Shown one piece after another: positions 14,454 to 33,410 of a stretch of 41,318 nucleotides of DNA. Source of the DNA: Clostridium phage slur17; the sequence record LN881738.1, one strand, 5' to 3'. The number at the start of each line of letters is the position of its first letter. Position 1 is the first letter of the stretch. The notes under the pieces were generated by a model. The model was not told where the DNA came from and searched no databases. It saw only the letters and a list, made by a program, of their open reading frames with translations. The translations under genes and the position numbers were made by a program.

Positions 14454-15026
14454 CTATATGTTCAACATTTCTCTATTTTTTGCTATCATTTGTTCCATTA
14501 AACTTACTTTAGACTCTCCAGCATCTCCACCGCTAGAACTAACAACCTTTGGAACACTATTGCCATTTATAAAAGCCCCTGGGTCATTTGCCTGCAATTC
14601 TTTTATATAATCATCTGCTCCCTCAAAAGCCCCGTTCTTATATTCAAGTCCCTTCTCTTTCATTTTTATTTTTACAGCCTCTTTTGAGAGATTGCTAGAA
14701 AACTTAAAATTACTTAAATAATTATCTAAATTTAAGTTATAAGTTTGCTCTGACATTTGATTTTCAATCAATTCCTTATCTTTTTGAGCCTGTTCGGCTT
14801 TACTCTTCCAGTCATCAACCTCTTTTTTTATACTCTCAACATCTATTTTTTCTAAGTCTTTAATTTTATTATTAGCTGTTTCGAGTTCAGTATTTTTACT
14901 TTCCAATTCTTCTTTTTTCTTTTCTACTTCTTTTTTATACTTTTCTATATCCCTCCCATTTTCGGACATGATTTTTTCTATAACCTCATCCTCTAAATTT
15001 AAATCTTTCAAAAACTCTCTTTTCAT
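14454..15026 (-). CDS. Scaffolding protein (phage GP20-like)
   Basis: MKREFLKDLNLEDEVIEKIMSENGRDIEKYK followed by an E/K coiled coil. Located upstream of the capsid gene. Confidence 0.75.
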   Translation of the reverse strand: MKREFLKDLNLEDEVIEKIMSENGRDIEKYKKEVEKKKEELESKNTELETANNKIKDLEKIDVESIKKEVDDWKSKAEQAQKDKELIENQMSEQTYNLNLDNYLSNFKFSSNLSKEAVKIKMKEKGLEYKNGAFEGADDYIKELQANDPGAFINGNSVPKVVSSSGGDAGESKVSLMEQMIAKNREMLNI

Positions 15027-15149
15027 AAAAACCTCCTGTTTTCATTTACAATTACGCTTTTTTACGTGGTAGCATCACATATTGTCTAACTTTTTACGTC
15101 GCTTAGTAGACATCTATATAAATGAATTAAGTATTTTAAGCATAAAAAT

Positions 15150-15171
15150 AAGTCTTATTAATATAAGACTT
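15150..15171 (-). terminator. Intrinsic terminator-like hairpin at the end of the 93-aa gene
   Basis: aagtcttat (15150-15158) pairs with ataagactt (15163-15171). On the minus strand it is followed by ATTTTTA. Confidence 0.5.
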
Positions 15172-15439
15172 CCTCATATGTTTCTCTAAATATATCAGCC
15201 TTGCATGGATATAGTTCTCCTTTTATCCCTTGAATAATGTAATCACCTACATTAGCCTCGTGTATACCTTCAAGCGTCTTTATATACATGCGTGGAGATA
15301 ATTCCCCTAGACTCTGTTCAATCCAAACATTGCCACTCTCAATAGCCTTAACTATCCATATTGGTTCTTCCTTTTGTTCTATACTTCCTAGCCATTTAAA
15401 AGCTTCAACAGTAACTGGCTTCTTTCTATATTTCCCCAT
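15158..15439 (-). CDS. Hypothetical protein (93 aa)
   Basis: Compact ORF with an SD. The pattern KKPVTVEAFKW...GDYIIQGIKGELYPCKADIFRETYE looks conserved, but I know of no function for it. Confidence 0.6.
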   Translation of the reverse strand: MGKYRKKPVTVEAFKWLGSIEQKEEPIWIVKAIESGNVWIEQSLGELSPRMYIKTLEGIHEANVGDYIIQGIKGELYPCKADIFRETYEEVLY

Positions 15440-26910: not shown

Positions 26911-27264
26911 ATGAATACTAGAATTAGAGACTTGCGAATTGCAGAGGGGCTATCTCAAATCGAATTTGGGAACAAGCTAGGAATGACTAGACACGAAATT
27001 TACAATCTTGAAAGTGGAAGAACACGAATAAAAGAAAGTGATTTAAAATTAATAACTTCAACATTTAAGGTAAACGAAAAATGGCTAAAAACAGGCGAAG
27101 GCGATATGTATACTTTTTCAAACAATAACTTAATAACAGCAGAAGTCTTATGCGCAATAGATAAGAATGAACGTCTTGCTAAAGCAATGTTAAAATTTAG
27201 CAAGTTAAATGACAAAGAATTAGAGGCAATGGAAAAGCTACTAGAATTATTTCAAAAAGAATAA
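26911..27264 (+). CDS. cI-like XRE-family repressor
   Basis: IRDLRIAEGLSQIEFGNKLGMTRHEIYNLESGRTRI is a classic XRE HTH, and the gene is divergent from the early operon. Confidence 0.85.
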   Translation: MNTRIRDLRIAEGLSQIEFGNKLGMTRHEIYNLESGRTRIKESDLKLITSTFKVNEKWLKTGEGDMYTFSNNNLITAEVLCAIDKNERLAKAMLKFSKLNDKELEAMEKLLELFQKE

Positions 27265-27476: not shown

Positions 27477-27505
27477 ATTATACCCCCTTTTGTTCGATAT
27501 TACAA
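27477..27505 (-). promoter_or_regulatory. Consensus-like promoter, TTGTAA-17-TATAAT
   Basis: The -10 is the reverse complement of 27477-27482 and the -35 is the reverse complement of 27500-27505, with a 17-nt spacer. Confidence 0.55.
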
Positions 27506-27694
27506 GAGCACATGTACGATTTTTTGTCGCAATTAAACATTTATACTACAATAATAGTACCTTTTATCAAATTTTGCTAGTGGAAAATAATTCCAATTCA
27601 AAATACATTGAATTTTCTTACATTAGGAAAGTTCAGGGTCAATTTTTTTAACCTTGCGATTTTCCATTTGGTATAAGTTTTATATTTTCACATC

Positions 27695-27760
27695 AAAAAG
27701 TCACGCAAGTAGGAATATATATATATATATATATATTAAATCCTACTTGCGTGACTTTTT
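27695..27760. terminator. Palindrome A: 15-bp stem around an (AT)n loop with A/T-run flanks (probable bidirectional terminator)
   Basis: gtcacgcaagtagga (27700-27714) pairs with tcctacttgcgtgac (27741-27755). The loop is (AT)11 followed by taaa. Confidence 0.6.
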
Positions 27761-27764
27761 GTTC

Positions 27765-27908
27765 TTAGATGCAAATTTCTAGTTGCTCTACTAACTCTAT
27801 TTCTTTTTCAATTTTAAATCCTATGTCAAATTCATTGTTTAAAAATGCCTTTTCAATTTCATCTAATTTACTCAATAACCTCTGTTTTCTAGTTTTTATA
27901 GCATTTCT
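27765..27908 (-). pseudogene. ORF remnant ending ...EIELVEQLEICI* with no canonical start
   Basis: 47-codon open frame with no ATG or GTG; the only TTG has an SD just 3 nt away. Its 3' end is homologous to the 21-codon mini-ORF at 28020-28085. Confidence 0.3.
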
Positions 27909-27957
27909 TTAAATATTGTATGCTAATTATGTTTATTTTAATTGATGACTCATTATC

Positions 27958-28015
27958 AAAAAGTCAGTCGACCTGGAATATATATATATATATATTCCAG
28001 GTCGACTGACTTTTT
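27958..28015. terminator. Palindrome B: 16-bp stem around a (TA)8 loop. Same flanks as palindrome A but a different stem sequence
   Basis: gtcagtcgacctggaa pairs with ttccaggtcgactgac in a perfect palindrome. Left flank atcaaaaagtca and right flank tgactttttgtt.ttagatgcaaatttcta are shared with A. Confidence 0.6.
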
Positions 28016-28077
28016 GTTTTTAGATGCAAATTTCTAATTGTTCTTTTGATTCTGTTTCTTTTTGATTAAATACAATT

Positions 28078-28425
28078 TTAATCAACTACAATTAATTCTG
28101 CCCCAGCTGGTAAATTAATTTTTATAAGTTCTAGTAAAAGTTGTTTTGAAAGCTCCTCCCTTAAATCCTGTTCTTGATATTGAAGTTCAAAAAAGTACTT
28201 ATCAACTTCTTCATCATAATAAAAATTATACTCATGATATGCCGAATTTTCTTCTAACAATTCTCTGTATCCAAGATTAATGCCTATAGGTATAAATTTA
28301 TCTTTATTTTTTATATCTTTTATGAAATTATCATAGTCATTAAAAGCTCGTATTAAAAGCTCTGAAAACTCATAACTCACACTCACTATATATTTATTTT
28401 TAACTTTAATATCTAATTCAAACAT
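28078..28425 (-). CDS. Hypothetical acidic protein (115 aa), co-operonic with the helicase
   Basis: AAGGAG SD. Lies 46 nt downstream of the helicase stop. No motif recognised. Confidence 0.6.
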   Translation of the reverse strand: MFELDIKVKNKYIVSVSYEFSELLIRAFNDYDNFIKDIKNKDKFIPIGINLGYRELLEENSAYHEYNFYYDEEVDKYFFELQYQEQDLREELSKQLLLELIKINLPAGAELIVVD

Positions 28426-28471
28426 CCTTTTTATCTCCTTATGTAAATATTTTTGAAATTTATTTTTGTCT

Positions 28472-30637
28472 CTACATAAAACCTTTTAATAACAATAGTT
28501 TTTCATCTTCATCTAAAGAGTTCAACATCCTGTCTTTTGTATATTTTATAGCATTTTCTAAACTCTTATCTTTTTCGTCTAATTCTAAATCTTTTTTTAT
28601 GTCATCTACAGTTATATATCTTTTTATATTATTAAGTTGTATTCGTTTTTTTTCAAACTGGCATGATATAGGATTTATATTTTTATAAAAAAACATAGTT
28701 TCTATATCATGCCAGTTACTATATTTTTTCTTTTCTATAATAAAAATTCCATTCAGTGTAACGCTTAGCTTTTTAGTTGTTAAATCCCAGTTTTCCCCTA
28801 AAATTGTTCTTAAGTCGTTACTTAACTCTTGTAAATGCAATTCTTTATAAGATGTTCCAATTCCAAACAATTTATCTATATAATTAAATACTGTAACTTG
28901 AATAAGTTCATCATTTAAAAACTCTGGATATTCCTCTTTTAATTCTCTATATATTAAAGTATTTATTTTATTAAATATTACCCCACGTCTTTTGTTTGCT
29001 GTATTCGCTAGTTTCCAAGCAAGGTCTAAGTCGAACTTATTATCTAGTACATAATTAGAATATAGTTCTAACATGCTATTACTTTTACTTTTCTTTACCA
29101 AATTATGTATGTCATACGCTCTGTAAGCCTCTAAGCACCCTTTTGAACTTAGTTTCATATCATTATGATACTGCATTAGTGAAAAGCTCTTAGAATCGCT
29201 TTTAATCTGTCTATAACCTACTAGAATTTCTTTATGTTCTTTTAAAATTTCTCTTGTTGCATCTTTAATTTCTTTTACAACTTTCTTGTACTCTTTTAAC
29301 TCTTTTTCATTTGTGCCAACTTCTTTAGCATCAGTTATATTAACATTTTCAAAATATTCTTCTAATAACACTTTAAAACTTTGAATTGTTCTTGTATTGT
29401 AATAGTTGCTGTAAACTTGACTTTTTATATATAATTTATCTACTTTATAGCAATTATCTTTTGTACAGTAGTACACATTTGAGTCTATGCGAATTGGCGT
29501 TGCATTTATTCCAACTGTTTCAAACTGTAACATGTGTTTAGATACTTTGTTATAAGCATCTTTTAAGATAGTTGCTTTTTCTATATTTTTGTTAACTAGC
29601 CATTCAATTTTGTATACATTGCACTCTTCTTCATATTTATTGAATATGTGTACATTTACTTTTTTTAAGTTTCTAAACCTTGCAACATACTGTTTTATAG
29701 CTCCAACATCTTTTATATTAACAATAATTATATCTGTGATATCTTTGTTGTTTATATTTACACCAGCTAGGATTGTTGTTGTATTTAAAAGCGTTTCATA
29801 GTCTTTCATGTCTGAATTTTTAACTATTCTATTGTACAATTCATTCTCTTCTTTTCCATCTGCATATACAACTCCAACTTTTTTGTTCACTGAATCTCTT
29901 ATAAATTCTAATGTTGATATATCATTCATCAACATGGCGCTGTTTTTAGATTTATTTATTATGTTAATCATTTCAGTAAAATTTTTATTGTCAAAGTCGT
30001 TGTACAATTTAACTTTATATTCTGTTTTTTGCTTTTGAGTGTACTCTATTATGTAGTCATATATTTCAAATTCAAGTTTTGTTGGTGTTGCTGTAATGTC
30101 TATTCTTCCTTTGCACTTAGACATTATATTATTTAGATTTTTTATTGCTTTTCCTCGATATGCATCTGTATAAGTTTGATGTATTTCATCAACTACAATT
30201 ATGTATTCACTTAAGTCTGTGTTTATAAGTTTTTCAGTTTTATCCCAAGTCATTACAACTAAGTTACCATTTTTAAATGCTTCGCTAACAGGTATTTTGT
30301 CATATGCTCCTGGTATATCATACTCGTGCATTGCCTGCTCCACATTTGAAGCATTTGGAAGTATGAATAACGCTTTTGTTTTTAATTTTTTTAATGTATT
30401 TATAAAGCTATAACTTTTTCCTGCTCCTGTCGGTGCAATAAACAGGGTTTTCCCGCCATTTATCGCGTTGGCTATAGCCGTTTTAATTCCTAGTTTTTTT
30501 TCGTTTATATATTTTTTTATTTCATATGTTTCATGTCTATTGAAATTTGAATAATTTTCTTTTTCATGCTCTGCTCTTTCAGCGCTACATTCTTCTAAAA
30601 ACATCTTATCTATATTATTTTTATTAACATTCTTCAT
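28472..30637 (-). CDS. Superfamily-2 DExH helicase (721 aa) with an uncharacterised ~370-aa C-terminal region
   Basis: Motif I APTGAGKS, Ia FILPNASNVEQ, II VVDEIHQ, III TATP, V TTILAGVNI, VI QYVARFRN. ATG at 30637 follows GGAGGG; the track start at 30658 is probably too long. Confidence 0.85.
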   Translation of the reverse strand: MKNVNKNNIDKMFLEECSAERAEHEKENYSNFNRHETYEIKKYINEKKLGIKTAIANAINGGKTLFIAPTGAGKSYSFINTLKKLKTKALFILPNASNVEQAMHEYDIPGAYDKIPVSEAFKNGNLVVMTWDKTEKLINTDLSEYIIVVDEIHQTYTDAYRGKAIKNLNNIMSKCKGRIDITATPTKLEFEIYDYIIEYTQKQKTEYKVKLYNDFDNKNFTEMINIINKSKNSAMLMNDISTLEFIRDSVNKKVGVVYADGKEENELYNRIVKNSDMKDYETLLNTTTILAGVNINNKDITDIIIVNIKDVGAIKQYVARFRNLKKVNVHIFNKYEEECNVYKIEWLVNKNIEKATILKDAYNKVSKHMLQFETVGINATPIRIDSNVYYCTKDNCYKVDKLYIKSQVYSNYYNTRTIQSFKVLLEEYFENVNITDAKEVGTNEKELKEYKKVVKEIKDATREILKEHKEILVGYRQIKSDSKSFSLMQYHNDMKLSSKGCLEAYRAYDIHNLVKKSKSNSMLELYSNYVLDNKFDLDLAWKLANTANKRRGVIFNKINTLIYRELKEEYPEFLNDELIQVTVFNYIDKLFGIGTSYKELHLQELSNDLRTILGENWDLTTKKLSVTLNGIFIIEKKKYSNWHDIETMFFYKNINPISCQFEKKRIQLNNIKRYITVDDIKKDLELDEKDKSLENAIKYTKDRMLNSLDEDEKLLLLKGFM

Positions 30638-30776
30638 CTTTATCCCTCCAATTTCCACCTGGAGGCTGACGCTCTTTTTTTGATTTTTTGTAATAATTTT
30701 ACTATTAAAATTACCTTAAAACCATTGTGTTTTTCTACACTTTGTCTTATAATATAAATATAAGTATAGAAAAACA

Positions 30777-30866
30777 AGGATATATTATCCTTAAGAGAGG
30801 TCTAACCTCCGGTGTAAGGAACATGGTTTGTTTGACGGCAAGTACATGTTCCTTGTTTATTTTTTT
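30777..30866 (+). ncRNA. Candidate ~90-nt structured RNA, antisense to the predicted helicase leader
   Basis: TTGTCT-17-TATAGA at 30742-30770. Hairpin aaggata/tatcctt at 30776-30792. Terminator aaggaacatg (30816-30825) pairs with catgttcctt (30845-30854), followed by GTTTATTTTTTT. Confidence 0.4.
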
Positions 30867-31006
30867 GTAGATTTTTTTAAACCAATTAAAAAAAAGTTTT
30901 CTGTTCGTTGTGATTATAATTATAGCACATTTAAATTATAAAAAAATATACTCTTTTTGAAAATAAATTATATTTTAAAAATATATTTTCTAAAATACTG
31001 CATTTT

Positions 31007-31040
31007 AAAAGACTTAGTATATAAACTAAGTCTTTTTTTA
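31007..31040 (+). terminator. 12-bp hairpin plus T-run
   Basis: aaaagacttagt pairs with actaagtctttt around the loop atataa, followed by TTTTA. Confidence 0.45.
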
Positions 31041-31156
31041 TGTAAATATATGTTATAATAATTTTAGCAAGAGAAAGCAATCTATATTCTAAAAAAAGAG
31101 TGGAGTCTATACACAAAAGATTATCCTCCCAACGCTACAAAGGGAGGTGATGAAGT

Positions 31157-31309
31157 ATGGATAATTTTTTACTTAATGTATTAGCTGGTGTTATAGCTAG
31201 TTTAATATTCTATATAATTAGCAAATTATTTAGACAAGTAAAAAACCACTCTGCGCAAAAGAGTGGTTGGGAATTTGATTTGAGAATCAAATTCAAAAAG
31301 TTTAAATAA
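31157..31309 (+). CDS. Type I toxin-like membrane peptide (50 aa)
   Basis: Below the track threshold. SD AAGGGAGGTG. Translation MDNFLLNVLAGVIASLIFYIISKLFRQVKNHSAQKSGWEFDLRIKFKKFK has a hydrophobic N-terminus and a Lys-rich tail. CCTCCC (31125-31130) can sequester the SD GGGAGG (31142-31147). Confidence 0.7.
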   Translation: MDNFLLNVLAGVIASLIFYIISKLFRQVKNHSAQKSGWEFDLRIKFKKFK

Positions 31310-31361
31310 TTTTTTATTTTAGACTAAAACTCTACTCTTATGACTAGAATACAGTTCTCTT
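31240..31361 (-). ncRNA. Candidate antitoxin sRNA, antisense to the toxin 3' end
   Basis: Minus-strand promoter TTGTAT-18-TGaTATAAT (reverse complement of 31368-31397). Terminator aaccactct/agagtggtt (31244-31268) plus a T-run on the minus strand. Confidence 0.55.
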
Positions 31362-31461
31362 GCTTTTATTATATCACATTTTCTTTAAAAGATACAACTT
31401 TACATCATTTTCAGTATTCTATTTTTTTTATTTTTATCAAAGTTTATTTTAAGAACGATAA

Positions 31462-31567
31462 AATTAAAAAACCACTCAAACGCCAATAAGAGTGGTTTAA
31501 GAAAATAAGTTATTTTTCAAAACATTGGAAATAGCTACTCTTGTGTAAAGTAAATCATTATTTCCTT
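31462..31567 (-). ncRNA. Second copy of the sRNA unit (same promoter and terminator architecture, no cognate toxin ORF seen)
   Basis: TTGTAT-19-TGaTATAAT (reverse complement of 31574-31604). Terminator aaaccactc/gagtggttt (31469-31498) plus a T-run. Confidence 0.45.
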
Positions 31568-31761
31568 GCTTTTATTATATCACATTTTTTAAAAAAAGAT
31601 ACAATTTTACATCATTTCTAATATACTAAAATCTTTACTTTTTACCAAAATTTGTTTAAAAAATAGGAGAAAACTATTGTTTTTGACGACCCGTCATGGT
31701 ATAATATATTTATAGAGAAGGAGGTGAGAAAGCAAAAAAATAAAAGAAAGGAGGAACGGGA

Positions 31762-31890
31762 ATGGGGAGATTAGAAAGAAGTAAAAAGAAAAGAGAAAAC
31801 AAATTTAACATAGTTAAAAAAGTTTTCTCCTTCATCCTATTATTACTTAACATAATCCTCGCAGTTCTAAGAATTTTGAAAGAACTGTAA
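31762..31890 (+). CDS. Small membrane peptide (42 aa)
   Basis: SD AAAGGAGG. Translation MGRLERSKKKRENKFNIVKKVFSFILLLLNIILAVLRILKEL. Upstream extended -10 TGgTATAAT at 31696-31704. An ~11-bp hairpin at 31898-31925 follows directly. Confidence 0.5.
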   Translation: MGRLERSKKKRENKFNIVKKVFSFILLLLNIILAVLRILKEL

Positions 31891-31964
31891 GGATAAGCCT
31901 AGAGGGAATAGCCCTTCTCTCTAGGTGACTTCTTTCTAATATTATAACACATTTCTAAAAAAAC

Positions 31965-32126
31965 ATGAGTGATAAATTTTATAAGATTTGCATTGTTTTA
32001 GTTTTGATAACTATAGTCTTAAATATAGTATCTATAGTATTAAACTCTAGTACAAGCAACATGCTCGGTTTAGTTTTTAGTGTTGTATTATTGCTTTTCT
32101 TTGTAATACAGCAAAAAAGGAGCTAA
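31965..32126 (+). CDS. Possible two-TM small protein (53 aa)
   Basis: MSDKFYKICIVLVLITIVLNIVSIVLNSSTSNMLGLVFSVVLLLFFVIQQKRS. There is no clear SD. It ends 3 nt before the AbrB-like gene. Confidence 0.35.
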   Translation: MSDKFYKICIVLVLITIVLNIVSIVLNSSTSNMLGLVFSVVLLLFFVIQQKRS

Positions 32127-32129
32127 TGA

Positions 32130-32312
32130 ATGGAAAAAGAAAAAAGAGATTTAAAGTTTAACTTTCACAAAGGTGGGAGTGGGTCGTTTACTCCTAGAAT
32201 GAGTGTTCCTAAAAAATGGGCTGATGAAATGGGCATAACAAGAGAAAACCCTAATGTTACGGCAACATTCGAGGGCGACAGGATAATAATTGAAAAGGCT
32301 AAGAATGAATGA
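32130..32312 (+). CDS. AbrB/MazE/SpoVT-type DNA-binding protein
   Basis: SFTPRMSVPKKWADEMGITRENPNVTATFEGDRIIIEK is a typical swapped-hairpin AbrB-like domain. Preceded by an AAGGAG SD. Confidence 0.75.
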   Translation: MEKEKRDLKFNFHKGGSGSFTPRMSVPKKWADEMGITRENPNVTATFEGDRIIIEKAKNE

Positions 32313-32360: not shown

Positions 32361-32369
32361 AAATTTTAC

Positions 32370-32585
32370 TATAATATAAAAATATTACTGTAATATTATA
32401 AAAATATTATTTTAGTATTGTATATACAATATTTTAGTATTTTTAATATAATATATTGGTATTGTAAAAGCAATATGTAAATATTGTATTTATATTATTT
32501 GAATATTGTAATTAACAATATTAATATATTGTTGCAATATTATAAAAACAATACTACAATATTATTATAATATTATAAATATAAT
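32370..32585. repeat. Centromere-like cluster of ATATTG/CAATAT palindromes upstream of parA
   Basis: Examples: aatattacTgtaatatt, agtattgtataTacaatatt, aatattgtaattaacaatatt, atattgttgcaatat. Confidence 0.55.
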
Positions 32586-32600
32586 AATGAGGTGGAGAAA

Positions 32601-33410
32601 ATGGCTAATACAAAGCTACTTACGTACTTTAACATAAAAGGAGGTATCTATAAGACAACAACGTCTATAATGACAGCGTATGAACTTGCGAAAGATAAAG
32701 ATAAAAAAATACTCTTATGGGACTTAGATGTGCAAGCAAATCTAACACAATATGTTTATGAAATAAATCATAATGATAATACTACATTAGATATTTTAAA
32801 AGGGATTAGTGCTAATGATGCAATAGTCAAGTCACCTAATGAAAATTACATTAATGTAGACTTAATTCCTTCTGACATACAAATGGCTAGATTTGAACAA
32901 GAGCTATCACCTTTACCAGCCAGAGAAAAATTTTTAGCTCGCTGGTACATGCAAAACTTTAATACTTTGAGTGAGTATGATTATATTATCTGTGATTTAT
33001 CTCCACGCTACGATTTGACAGCTAAAAATGTGCTTTTCTTAGCAGATAGTATAATTATTCCAATTCAAGATAAAAACATTTCTTCTTTAAGAGGAGCAGA
33101 ATTATTTAAACAACTCTGGGATGTTGATAGAACCTATTTTGATAAGGAGGATAATATAAAAAGTACTATTTTAGTTGGATTTGAGAAGAAGAAAACTCAA
33201 ATTAGCGATACTTTCGATTCTTATCTGGAAGGGTTTAACGATATGAGAGATATTATGTTAGATACATACATTAGAAAAAATGAGTTTATAGAGAAGGCAC
33301 TATTAAAAAAACTATCTCTAACAGATTATACAAAAATAACTAAAGAGCATTTCAGCAGACAGGAATTTACTAATATGTTAGAAGAATTGAAAAGAAAAGG
33401 AGTGTTATAG
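32601..33410 (+). CDS. parA: ParA-family partition ATPase (deviant Walker A)
   Basis: KGGIYKTT Walker A, LLWDLDVQANLT, and the CDLSP motif. ATG at 32601 follows GAGGTGG. Confidence 0.85.
   Translation: MANTKLLTYFNIKGGIYKTTTSIMTAYELAKDKDKKILLWDLDVQANLTQYVYEINHNDNTTLDILKGISANDAIVKSPNENYINVDLIPSDIQMARFEQELSPLPAREKFLARWYMQNFNTLSEYDYIICDLSPRYDLTAKNVLFLADSIIIPIQDKNISSLRGAELFKQLWDVDRTYFDKEDNIKSTILVGFEKKKTQISDTFDSYLEGFNDMRDIMLDTYIRKNEFIEKALLKKLSLTDYTKITKEHFSRQEFTNMLEELKRKGVL

What the first reader, a model, noticed from the sequence alone, without database searches (positions are those of the whole stretch)
28078..30930. Orphan SF2 helicase operon with a counter-transcript in its leader: candidate plasmid replicon or unrecognised system
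A 721-aa DExH helicase carrying motifs I to VI has a ~370-aa C-terminal region in which I recognise nothing. It is followed by a 115-aa acidic protein.

The rest of the genome encodes an SSB but no recognisable replication initiator, primase or DnaB/DnaC-type loader. The element nevertheless carries par genes and no large integrase. The helicase operon is therefore the best candidate for the autonomous replicon. To my recollection, a helicase-containing module also defines the pCD630-like plasmid family in C. difficile.

A minus-strand extended -10 (TGcTATAAT, reverse complement of 30919-30927) would give a ~275-nt leader. Entirely inside that leader, on the opposite strand, sits a promoter plus three hairpins plus a strong terminator (30742-30866). 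This is the classical layout of antisense-RNA copy-number control.

Alternatively the helicase and small-protein pair could be a prophage-encoded defence module of a type not yet catalogued.
Basis: inference. Interest (0 to 1): 0.65.

Follow-up and report, generated by a model that had tools for sequence, protein, structure and literature searches.

The report
Phage-plasmid replication helicase with antisense RNA
This is most likely the module that lets a Clostridioides difficile phage persist as a plasmid: a helicase related to the replication helicase of pCD630-type plasmids, whose production appears to be throttled by a small, previously unannotated antisense RNA.

Summary
The window is a complete phiCD38-2/CDSH1-type C. 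difficile phage, a type known to persist as a plasmid.

- **Coding part.** The minus strand at 28078-30637 encodes a 721-aa DExH helicase and a 115-aa acidic protein (pI 4.5).
- **Not an orphan.** The helicase is about 50-53% identical over about 95% of its length to pCD630 CDP07. CDP07 marks a plasmid module shown experimentally to be a functional replicon. Remote relatives that share its rare C-terminal region carry primase modules at the N-terminus.
- **C-terminal region.** It is predicted to be helical and to end in a winged-helix DNA-binding fold.
- **Leader.** It has an invariant extended -10 promoter. A roughly 105-nt antisense RNA (30760-30866) is supported by compensatory base changes. 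The ribosome-binding site sits in a hairpin. A long-range helix could open that hairpin, and the antisense RNA would block that helix.
- **Same design in plasmids.** pCD630-type plasmids have the same layout and an identical 12-nt hairpin-loop motif, but in inverted orientation.

Nothing supports a defence system. I read this as a new member of a known replicon family, with an undescribed antisense-RNA control. All function is inferred from sequence.

The parts
28472..30637 (-). Gene for the 721-aa SF2 DExH helicase (phiCD38-2 gp35 type, pCD630 CDP07 family). Residues ~35-335 form the helicase core, ~340-575 a helical region and ~579-675 a predicted winged-helix domain.
28078..28425 (-). Gene for a 115-aa acidic protein (gp36 type), 46 nt downstream of the helicase gene and probably co-transcribed. 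Function unknown.
   Evidence: pI 4.49. PHROG 6335, unknown function. 55% identical copy in phiMMP04. No homologue in pCD630 or pCD-WTSI2. No wider family found.
27957..28016 (.). Perfect 30+30-nt palindrome with a (TA)n centre, flanked by A- and T-runs. Probably the bidirectional terminator that ends the helicase-gp36 operon.
   Evidence: I6, 100% complementary. A diverged second copy lies at 27694-27761.
30913..30945 (-). Helicase promoter region. Two overlapping TATAAT boxes, the upstream one extended (TGCTATAAT, reverse complement of 30919-30927). Invariant in all relatives.
30638..30912 (-). Helicase mRNA leader of about 270 nt.
   Evidence: Distance from the promoter to the ATG. Folds with z = -5.5. 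Conserved at 74-100% among the phages.
30644..30665 (-). Hairpin that buries the ribosome-binding site. UGGAGGG is the reverse complement of 30644-30650. It pairs with CCUCCA, the reverse complement of 30660-30665.
   Evidence: 98.5% of cells paired across 11 leaders. The divergent lineage L011 keeps the pairing with different sequences, AGGGG with CCCU.
30800..30814 (-). Upstream leader segment (CACCGGAGGUUAGAC) that can pair with the sequence masking the ribosome-binding site (reverse complement of ~30660-30674). It lies inside the stretch covered by the antisense RNA.
   Evidence: Present in the minimum-free-energy fold. 90.9% of cells paired against at most 58% when slid. Three pairs changed on both sides and one pair has four pair types.
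30725..30753 (+). Promoter of the antisense RNA: TTGTGT, 17 nt, TATAAT. The -10 box is invariant and the TTG of the -35 box is conserved.
30760..30866 (+). Predicted antisense RNA of about 105 nt. Hairpin 1 at 30776-30792, hairpin 2 at 30797-30809, terminator hairpin at 30816-30854 and T-run at 30856-30866.
   Evidence: Fold z = -3.9. Covariation. The covariance model finds it only in C. difficile phage contigs, at 106-137 bits. No Rfam family. No conserved ORF.
30828..30839 (-). 12-nt motif GCCGTCAAACAA in the 19-nt loop of the terminator hairpin. Single copy in the window and invariant in the phages. Also single copy, in inverted orientation, in the matching hairpin loop of pCD630 and pCD-WTSI2.

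Best explanation
The locus is the replication module of a phiCD38-2-type phage-plasmid.

**The proteins**
- The 721-aa protein belongs to the pCD630 CDP07 family of plasmid replication helicases. It has an SF2 DExH motor, a helical region and a C-terminal winged-helix domain.
- I infer that the winged-helix domain binds DNA at a not yet located origin, probably in or near the gene's own upstream region. The motor would then open or unwind that DNA for the host replisome.
- The helicase gene is probably transcribed together with the gene for a small acidic protein of unknown role. Transcription would start at a conserved extended -10 promoter and end at a large palindromic terminator.

**The proposed control**
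- The mRNA has a leader of about 270 nt in which the ribosome-binding site is buried in a hairpin.
- An upstream leader segment can pair with the masking sequence and so free the ribosome-binding site.
- A roughly 105-nt RNA made from the opposite strand inside the leader is exactly complementary to that upstream segment. When it pairs with the leader, the hairpin over the ribosome-binding site persists and helicase synthesis falls.
- The antisense RNA dose rises with gene copy number, so this would hold plasmid copy number steady.

**Shown here**
- Homology of the helicase to CDP07.
- Domain fusions in remote relatives.
- Conserved promoters on both strands.
- RNA structures with compensatory base changes.
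- The same layout in pCD630-type plasmids.

**Inferred**
- Origin binding by the helicase.
- Existence of the RNA in cells.
- Translational control and the effect on copy number.
For: **Identity of the element**
- The window is 100% identical to phage CDSH1 and 99.6% to phiCD38-2 over the 4-kb region queried, 27500-31500.
- A 41,319-bp C. difficile plasmid record (the window is 41,318 bases) encodes a 100% identical helicase and leader.
- phiCD38-2 is maintained as a circular plasmid (PMC6127314).

**Helicase family**
- The helicase is 50-53% identical over 95-97% of its length to pCD630 and pCD-WTSI helicases.
- Those authors propose CDP07 as the replication protein.
- They showed that the conserved helicase region of pJMR5-W is a functional replicon.
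- The C-terminal region is rare: 54 clusters among 1.84 billion representative proteins. It almost always sits behind a helicase.
- Remote members carry Prim-Pol, Toprim or DnaG zinc-ribbon modules at the N-terminus.
- Homologues sit on 5-15-kb elements. The ~9-kb ones appear to be circular.

**Structure**
- Many of the top viral structure matches are annotated as replication origin-binding helicases.

**Genomic context**
- The gene lies between the CI-type repressor and the type I toxin-antitoxin plus ParA block, outside the early lytic operon.
- phiMMP04-type phages share the helicase at 88% and the leader. They lack homologues of the other early candidates gp42, gp43 and SSB.

**RNA control**
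- Promoters on both strands are invariant.
- Antisense RNA structure: 95.9% paired, with five compensatory pairs.
- Ribosome-binding-site hairpin: 98.5% paired.
- Long-range helix: 90.9% paired, with three compensatory pairs.
- pCD630-type plasmids show the same features:
  - an antisense promoter;
  - a 5' hairpin carrying the same 12-mer;
  - a masked ribosome-binding site;
  - a 12-13-bp long-range helix with compensatory changes.
- One stem position is a C/A mismatch on the sense strand but a G-U pair on the antisense strand. This indicates that the hairpin functions in the antisense transcript.
Against: **The replicon claim**
- There is no experimental evidence for this locus.
- In pJMR5-W the helicase gene alone did not sustain replication.
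- The other conserved plasmid genes (CDP08-10) have no homologues in the phage.
- The phage protein lacks the primase zinc finger of the plasmid proteins.
- No origin has been located. GC skew is uninformative because it follows gene orientation.
- The helicase gene is reported as early or middle in lytic infection. It may therefore serve lytic replication as well, or instead.
- Early genes gp42 (PHROG label 'replication terminator') and gp43 remain of unknown function.

**The RNA control claim**
- The compensatory changes in the phage long-range helix come mostly from one divergent lineage.
- The winged-helix matches are weak.
- The 12-mer is inverted between phage and plasmid. A DNA-level role would explain that equally well.
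Confidence: 0.6

Rival explanations
1. The helicase serves lytic DNA replication or recombination only. Plasmid maintenance would then depend on another determinant, for example the uncharacterised early genes gp42/gp43 or a host-driven origin near parA.
For: - RNA-seq of related phages places the helicase gene among early (CDHS-1) or middle (JD032) lytic genes.
- gp42 falls in a PHROG labelled 'replication terminator', and gp43 is unknown.
- 22-bp repeats lie upstream of parA at 32362-32497.
Against: - The gene lies outside the early operon. It sits downstream of the repressor gene, in convergent orientation to it, and next to the toxin-antitoxin and partition genes.
- Its closest non-phage relatives are the defining gene of small plasmids with proven replicon activity.
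- phiMMP04-type phages lack gp42, gp43 and SSB but keep the helicase and its leader.
- A dose-dependent antisense control suits steady-state plasmid replication.
- The two roles do not exclude each other.
Confidence: 0.2
2. The conserved hairpin with the 12-mer is mainly a DNA element, and the apparent antisense RNA is incidental. The element could be an origin, a helicase or primase loading site, or an operator for the winged-helix domain.
For: - The 12-mer is identical in phage and plasmids although the surrounding DNA has no detectable similarity. Its orientation relative to the helicase gene is inverted.
- In the plasmids a partial inverted second copy (ACCGTCAAAAAA) lies on the other side of the helicase promoter.
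Against: - The antisense promoter boxes are invariant in the phages.
- A T-run sits on the antisense strand in both phage and plasmids.
- G-U pairs are valid only in the antisense transcript.
- Stems covary.
- An inversion between the stem arms would also be neutral for loop-loop RNA pairing.
- Both roles may coexist.
Confidence: 0.15
3. The helicase and small acidic protein form a prophage-encoded defence or counter-defence module.
For: - The region between lysis and lysogeny genes of these phages carries accessory genes. AcrIB2 lies nearby, at gp25-27.
- PADLOC gives weak matches to Cas3d and type IV DinG.
- The small protein is acidic, as many anti-defence proteins are.
Against: - The PADLOC matches cover only 60-70 residues around the P-loop, at E = 2e-4 to 3e-3.
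- There is no nuclease or other effector domain.
- The family is the core gene of small plasmids and is fused to primase modules in remote members.
Confidence: 0.05

Closest known systems
Helicase-containing replicon module of pCD630 / pCD-WTSI plasmids of C. difficile (CDP07; Smits et al. 2018; Roseboom et al. 2022)
   Same: - The SF2 helicase is homologous along its whole length, including the C-terminal region: 50-53% identity over about 95%.
- The upstream design is the same:
  - an extended -10 promoter;
  - a 5' hairpin carrying GCCGTCAAACAA;
  - an antisense promoter inside the leader;
  - a masked ribosome-binding site;
  - a long-range helix.
- Both are extrachromosomal elements of the same host.
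   Different: - The phage protein has no N-terminal CHC2 zinc finger.
- The phage has no homologues of CDP08, CDP09 or CDP10.
- The small acidic partner lies downstream (gp36) rather than upstream (CDP08), and the two have no detectable similarity.
- The loop 12-mer is inverted.
- The module sits inside a complete 41-kb phage that has its own ParA.
Antisense-RNA control of rep translation in plasmids (R1 CopA/CopT; pMV158 RNAII; most similar in logic, IncI-alpha/IncB Inc RNA / RNAI, where a long-range interaction needed to open the rep ribosome-binding site is blocked by the antisense RNA). Comparison from my own knowledge of these systems.
   Same: - A short, structured RNA made from a constitutive-looking promoter inside the rep leader on the opposite strand.
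- It ends at an intrinsic terminator.
- The ribosome-binding site is buried in a hairpin.
- An upstream segment that can open that hairpin lies within the antisense target.
   Different: - No sequence or Rfam relationship.
- No leader peptide is evident.
- The regulated gene is an SF2 helicase rather than a classical Rep.
- Regulation is untested.
Herpes simplex virus 1 UL9 origin-binding protein
   Same: - An SF2 helicase core followed by a C-terminal domain that recognises DNA.
- Many of the best viral structure matches are annotated as origin-binding helicases.
   Different: - No sequence-level membership. Pfam Herpes_ori_bp is not among the hits.
- The C-terminal fold predicted here is a winged helix.
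- Origin binding is inferred.
Primase-helicase replication proteins of plasmids and phages (P4 alpha, N15 RepA, pRN1 ORF904, T7 gp4). Comparison from my own knowledge.
   Same: Remote family members have the order primase module, helicase, C-terminal DNA-binding region. The primase module is Prim-Pol, Toprim or a DnaG zinc ribbon.
   Different: - The motor is SF2 rather than SF3 or SF4.
- The phage protein has lost, or never had, any primase part.

Membership tests
pCD630/pCD-WTSI helicase replicon family | CDP07-type SF2 helicase with the family-specific C-terminal region | tested here: met
   - 50-53% identity over about 95% of the length, to pCD630 and pCD-WTSI2 among others.
- The C-terminal region alone retrieves only this family.
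pCD630/pCD-WTSI helicase replicon family | N-terminal CHC2 (DnaG-type) zinc finger on the helicase | tested here: not met
   - The phage protein begins about 25 residues before the helicase core.
- The 869-aa plasmid proteins have an extra 150-170 residues.
- Many 703-714-aa family members from other Peptostreptococcaceae also lack it.
pCD630/pCD-WTSI helicase replicon family | Conserved neighbours CDP08 to CDP10 (small acidic protein, RHH/HTH regulator, 181-aa protein) | tested here: not met
   tblastn of all window ORFs against pCD630 and pCD-WTSI2 finds only the helicase and two recombinases.
pCD630/pCD-WTSI helicase replicon family | The module sustains autonomous replication in C. difficile | not testable with these tools
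   Shown for pJMR5-W only. It needs cloning of about 27.95-31.0 kb.
pCD630/pCD-WTSI helicase replicon family | Shared upstream control region (my own criterion, not one from the literature) | tested here: met
   - The same 12-mer sits in a hairpin loop.
- There is an antisense promoter, a masked ribosome-binding site and a long-range helix.
- The loop orientation is inverted.
Antisense-RNA copy-number control | Promoter on the opposite strand inside the rep leader, giving a short RNA that ends at an intrinsic terminator | tested here: met
   Sequence level only: TTGTGT, 17 nt, TATAAT, with a conserved hairpin and T-run.
Antisense-RNA copy-number control | Conserved stem-loops in the antisense RNA | tested here: met
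   95.9% of cells paired, five compensatory pairs and slid controls at about 47%.
Antisense-RNA copy-number control | A target structure through which pairing lowers rep expression | tested here: inconclusive
   - The ribosome-binding-site hairpin and the long-range helix are conserved.
- The phage covariation rests largely on one lineage.
- The switch itself is inferred.
Antisense-RNA copy-number control | The RNA is detectable, and its loss raises copy number | not testable with these tools
   The lysogen RNA-seq paper was not held.
Phage-plasmid | A full set of phage genes plus plasmid partition and replication functions, maintained extrachromosomally | tested here: met
   - Annotated lysis and tail-fibre genes, and 100% / 99.6% DNA identity to known phages over 27500-31500.
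- ParA.
- A plasmid record of matching size (41,319 bp) with a 100% identical helicase and leader.
- Literature.
Catalogued anti-phage defence systems (PADLOC) | Significant full-length match of the proteins to a defence-system model | tested here: not met
   - Only short P-loop matches for the helicase, at E = 2e-4 and 3e-3.
- No match for the small protein.
Herpesvirus UL9-type origin-binding helicases | Sequence membership (Pfam Herpes_ori_bp) and specific origin binding | tested here: not met
   - No Pfam hit.
- Only a fold-level resemblance.
- Binding is untested.

The most novel reading that the evidence does not exclude
The identical 12-nt loop, inverted between phage-plasmid and pCD630-type plasmids, would mediate cross-talk between the two elements.

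- **Why the inversion matters.** The phage antisense RNA loop (UUGUUUGACGGC) is complementary to the plasmid antisense RNA loop (GCCGUCAAACAA), not to the plasmid mRNA. The two repressor RNAs could therefore pair with each other instead of repressing each other's helicase.
- **Consequences.** The two replicons would be compatible. Arrival of the phage could also de-repress replication of the small capsid-gene-bearing plasmids, as expected for a satellite and its helper.
- **Alternative, or in addition.** The 12-mer could be the DNA site recognised by the winged-helix domain. That would make this family a bacterial SF2 initiator-helicase.
Probability: 0.12. Interest if true: 0.8.

Novelty: new member of a known kind. 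Interest (0 to 1): 0.55.

Why it matters
- **An open mechanism.** Two C. difficile phage genera are involved: Leicestervirus (phiCD38-2) and Sherbrookevirus (phiMMP04). phiCD38-2 persists as a plasmid, and both types appear as plasmid records. I found no description of how they replicate in the literature I could search.
- **A concrete candidate.** Tying their helicase to the pCD630-family replicon gives a testable replication gene. The predicted antisense RNA offers a way to change copy number or to cure these prophages.
- **A rare kind of replication protein.** The family looks like a narrowly distributed class built on an SF2 motor, with primase fusions in remote members and a winged-helix tail. 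None of it has been studied biochemically, as far as I could find.
- **Possible interaction between elements.** The shared control design and the inverted 12-mer suggest exchange or interaction between phages and small capsid-carrying plasmids in the same host.

Tried and rejected
**Searches that gave nothing useful**
- PADLOC and NCBIfam scans of the helicase, the small protein and three early proteins.
- Sequence search of solved structures with the helicase family profile. It returned only marginal P-loop matches.
- The same search with gp42 and gp43 gave nothing.
- The genome-contig scan with the family alignment returned only three loci.
- Rfam at gathering and at permissive thresholds found no family for the leader.
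- The homologue search for the small acidic protein returned only its own cluster.

**Searches with weak or uninformative results**
- The covariance model of the antisense RNA found strong matches only in C. difficile phage contigs. It gave weak matches of 20-23 bits upstream of the plasmid helicases. Most of the 29 loci fetched with the loop pattern are chance matches.
- More distant family members from Terrisporobacter and Romboutsia lack the 12-mer. The Terrisporobacter locus and the ~9-kb metagenome elements have a small upstream ORF instead of this leader.
- GC skew follows gene orientation and does not locate an origin.
- Duplex energies for phage RNA against plasmid RNA are not distinguishable from shuffles in this AT-rich sequence.

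**Considered and rejected**
- Small ORFs overlapping the antisense RNA (47 aa on the plus strand, 45 aa on the minus strand). They are not conserved in frame or length.

**Unavailable**
- The afdb50 structure library.
- The two primary phiCD38-2 papers, including the lysogen RNA-seq.

**Checked and excluded**
- AcrIB2 is a different gene, near the lysis module.


Full report
**What the window is.** The 4-kb region around the finding (27500-31500) is 100% identical to Clostridium phage CDSH1 and 99.6% to phiCD38-2. A 41,319-bp C. difficile plasmid record encodes a 100% identical helicase and leader, and the window is 41,318 bases. phiCD38-2 was the first C. difficile prophage shown to be kept as a circular plasmid (PMC6127314).

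**Check of the observation.**
- The helicase ORF, taken from the ATG behind a GGAGGG ribosome-binding site, is 28472-30637 on the minus strand and encodes 721 aa.
- It carries GAGKS (residue 71), DEIH (150), TAT (182) and QYVARFR (316).
- Pfam sees only ResIII/DEAD at residues 53-186. PHROGs places the whole protein in a family of unknown function.
- The next gene, 28078-28425, encodes a 115-aa protein of pI 4.49.
It is invariant in all related leaders.
- On the plus strand there is TTGTGT, 17 nt, TATAAT (30725-30753). Hairpins follow at 30776-30792, 30797-30809 and 30816-30854, then a T-run.
- The predicted RNA is about 105 nt rather than about 90 nt.

**The helicase is not an orphan.**
- A database search returned 462 relatives.
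- Those at about 50% identity over 97% of the length are the 869-aa helicases of pCD630 and pCD-WTSI plasmids.
- A direct comparison gives 53% identity over 703 residues to pCD630 CDP07, including the C-terminal region.
- Smits et al. defined this plasmid family by that helicase and proposed it as the replication protein.
- Roseboom et al. showed that the conserved helicase-containing region of pJMR5-W sustains replication in C. difficile. The helicase gene alone did not.
- The plasmid proteins have an extra N-terminal CHC2 zinc finger that the phage protein lacks.
- Only the helicase is shared. The plasmid genes CDP08-10 have no counterpart in the window, and gp36 has none in the plasmids.

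**What the C-terminal region is.**
- An AlphaFold model of the whole protein is usable (mean pLDDT 78.8, pTM 0.75).
- Against predicted viral structures, many of the best non-self matches are annotated as replication origin-binding helicases.
- A search with the C-terminal region alone against 1.84 billion representative proteins found only 54 clusters. Almost all place it at the C-terminus of 720-1081-aa proteins.
- Remote members carry a Prim-Pol domain, a Toprim domain or a DnaG zinc ribbon at the N-terminus.
- Three kinds of primase module fused to the same helicase and tail indicate a role in starting DNA replication. They argue against a role in defence.

**Context.**
- The operon lies between the CI-type repressor gene (26911-27264) and a block made of a known type I toxin gene (gp33, 31157-31309; PMC7699646), small membrane proteins and ParA (32592-33410).
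- It is outside the early lytic operon, which starts on the other side of the repressor gene.
- phiMMP04-type myoviruses share the helicase (88%), gp36 (55%), the leader and the toxin block. They lack homologues of gp42, gp43 and SSB.
- The helicase is therefore the only candidate replication gene common to both phage types.
- Other family members sit on elements of 5-15 kb.
- RNA-seq papers list the gene as early or middle in lytic growth. It probably serves lytic replication too.

**The antisense RNA.**
- The leader is 74-100% identical among the phages. It stays about 86% identical even where the helicase is only 58% identical.
- In an alignment of ten leaders, the three hairpins are paired in 95.9% of cells. 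The figure is about 47% when partners are slid.
- Five pairs change on both sides, four of them in the terminator stem (AAGGAACATG/CATGTTCCTT against GAGGAATACT/AGTATTCCTC).
- The inner stem has G-U pairs valid only in the plus-strand RNA.
- ORFs overlapping the region are not conserved, and Rfam has no matching family.

**A plausible switch.**
- In the helicase mRNA the ribosome-binding site UGGAGG pairs with CCUCCA 10 nt upstream. This pairing holds in 98.5% of cells, and the divergent lineage L011 keeps it with different sequences.
- The minimum-free-energy fold pairs that masking sequence with an upstream segment, CACCGGAGG. This segment lies just 3' of the first leader hairpin and inside the antisense target.
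- This long-range helix is paired in 90.9% of cells, against at most 58% when slid. Three pairs change on both sides, and one pair shows four pair types.
- I infer that the antisense RNA, by pairing with the upstream segment, leaves the ribosome-binding site masked.
- The logic resembles the IncI-alpha/IncB systems, as I know them.

**The same design in the plasmids.**
- Upstream of the pCD630 and pCD-WTSI2 helicases there is no detectable DNA similarity to the phage leader. The parts are nevertheless the same:
  - an extended -10 promoter (TGATATAAT);
  - a 5' hairpin;
  - an antisense promoter (TTTACA, 17 nt, TATAAT);
  - a T-run on the antisense strand;
  - a masked ribosome-binding site (CCCCU with AGGGG);
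  - a 12-13-bp long-range helix.
- Across seven plasmid lineages that helix is paired in 88.4% of cells and has two compensatory pairs.
- One hairpin position is C/A on the sense strand but G-U on the antisense strand, and a T-A pair in other lineages.

**An unexplained detail.**
- The hairpin loop holds the same 12-mer, GCCGTCAAACAA, once per element in the phages and in both plasmids.
- In the phage it lies on the helicase-sense strand. In the plasmids it lies on the antisense strand.
- Recombination between the stem arms would invert a loop. Such an inversion would be neutral for loop-loop RNA pairing.
- It would equally suit a DNA site read by the winged-helix domain.
- It also makes the two antisense RNAs complementary to each other. 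A crude duplex calculation could not separate this from background.

**Verdict.** The main interpretation is supported, and the defence reading is not. The locus is a new member of the pCD630-type helicase replicon family, set in a phage-plasmid. Its antisense-RNA control is not mentioned in the papers I could search. All functional steps remain inferred.

Noticed in passing
window 31157-31309 (+), with a minus-strand terminator-like hairpin at 31244-31268: A 50-aa hydrophobic protein with a basic tail (gp33). The literature already describes it as a type I toxin-antitoxin toxin of phiCD38-2 (PMC7699646). An antisense terminator lies inside its 3' end. A 206-nt-spaced repeat (31359-31455 and 31565-31662) follows, and two further small hydrophobic ORFs lie at 31762-31890 and 31965-32126.
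   Followed up: partly
window 32362-32497 and 32517-32586: Four tandem 22-bp repeats and a related inverted copy lie immediately upstream of parA. They are probably the partition site or operator, though an origin role is not excluded.
   Followed up: no
window 27694-27761 and 27957-28016: Two related large palindromes with (TA)n centres lie 263 bp apart. Each is followed by about 50 nt of similar sequence (86-nt repeat, 80% identical). This looks like a duplicated small-gene-plus-terminator unit between gp36 and the repressor gene.
   Followed up: no
window 15053-15112 (-): Rfam GP20-b RNA motif at 55 bits, E = 1.3e-9. This is a known cis-regulatory motif, lying in the 14454-15439 stretch of minus-strand ORFs.
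   Followed up: no
L052 and L053 (about 9.1-kb metagenome contigs that appear to be circular permutations of one element); also pCD630 (L003): Small elements carry the helicase together with a major capsid protein, a capsid protease and a small tyrosine recombinase, but no other virion genes. This gene content resembles that of a phage satellite. A 2024 virome paper reports that pCD-WTSI-like plasmids are found in particle-protected DNA (PMC10993401).
   Followed up: partly
L003 1-456 (-), pCD630 CDP06: CDP06 is a free-standing copy of the last ~150 residues of the helicase, which correspond to the predicted winged-helix part. It might compete with the full-length protein for DNA, as the C-terminal fragment of HSV-1 UL9 does.
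   Followed up: no
L002 8888-9421 (+) and L050/L051: In phiMMP04-type phages a DnaQ-like 3'-5' exonuclease gene is inserted between the helicase promoter region and the toxin gene. It is transcribed divergently from the helicase.
   Followed up: no
window 30640-32312 compared with L002 and L014: The leader and the toxin/small-protein block are much better conserved between phage genera than their flanks. The leader is 81-86% identical in DNA, and the small proteins are 94-100% identical. By contrast ParA is 37%, gp36 is 55%, and in L014 the helicase is only 58%. This suggests recent exchange of the block as a cassette.
   Followed up: partly
L003 3451-3462 (-) and the equivalent site in L004: A partial second copy of the 12-mer (ACCGTCAAAAAA) lies on the far side of the plasmid helicase promoter, inverted relative to the loop copy. 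No such copy was seen in the phage.
   Followed up: partly
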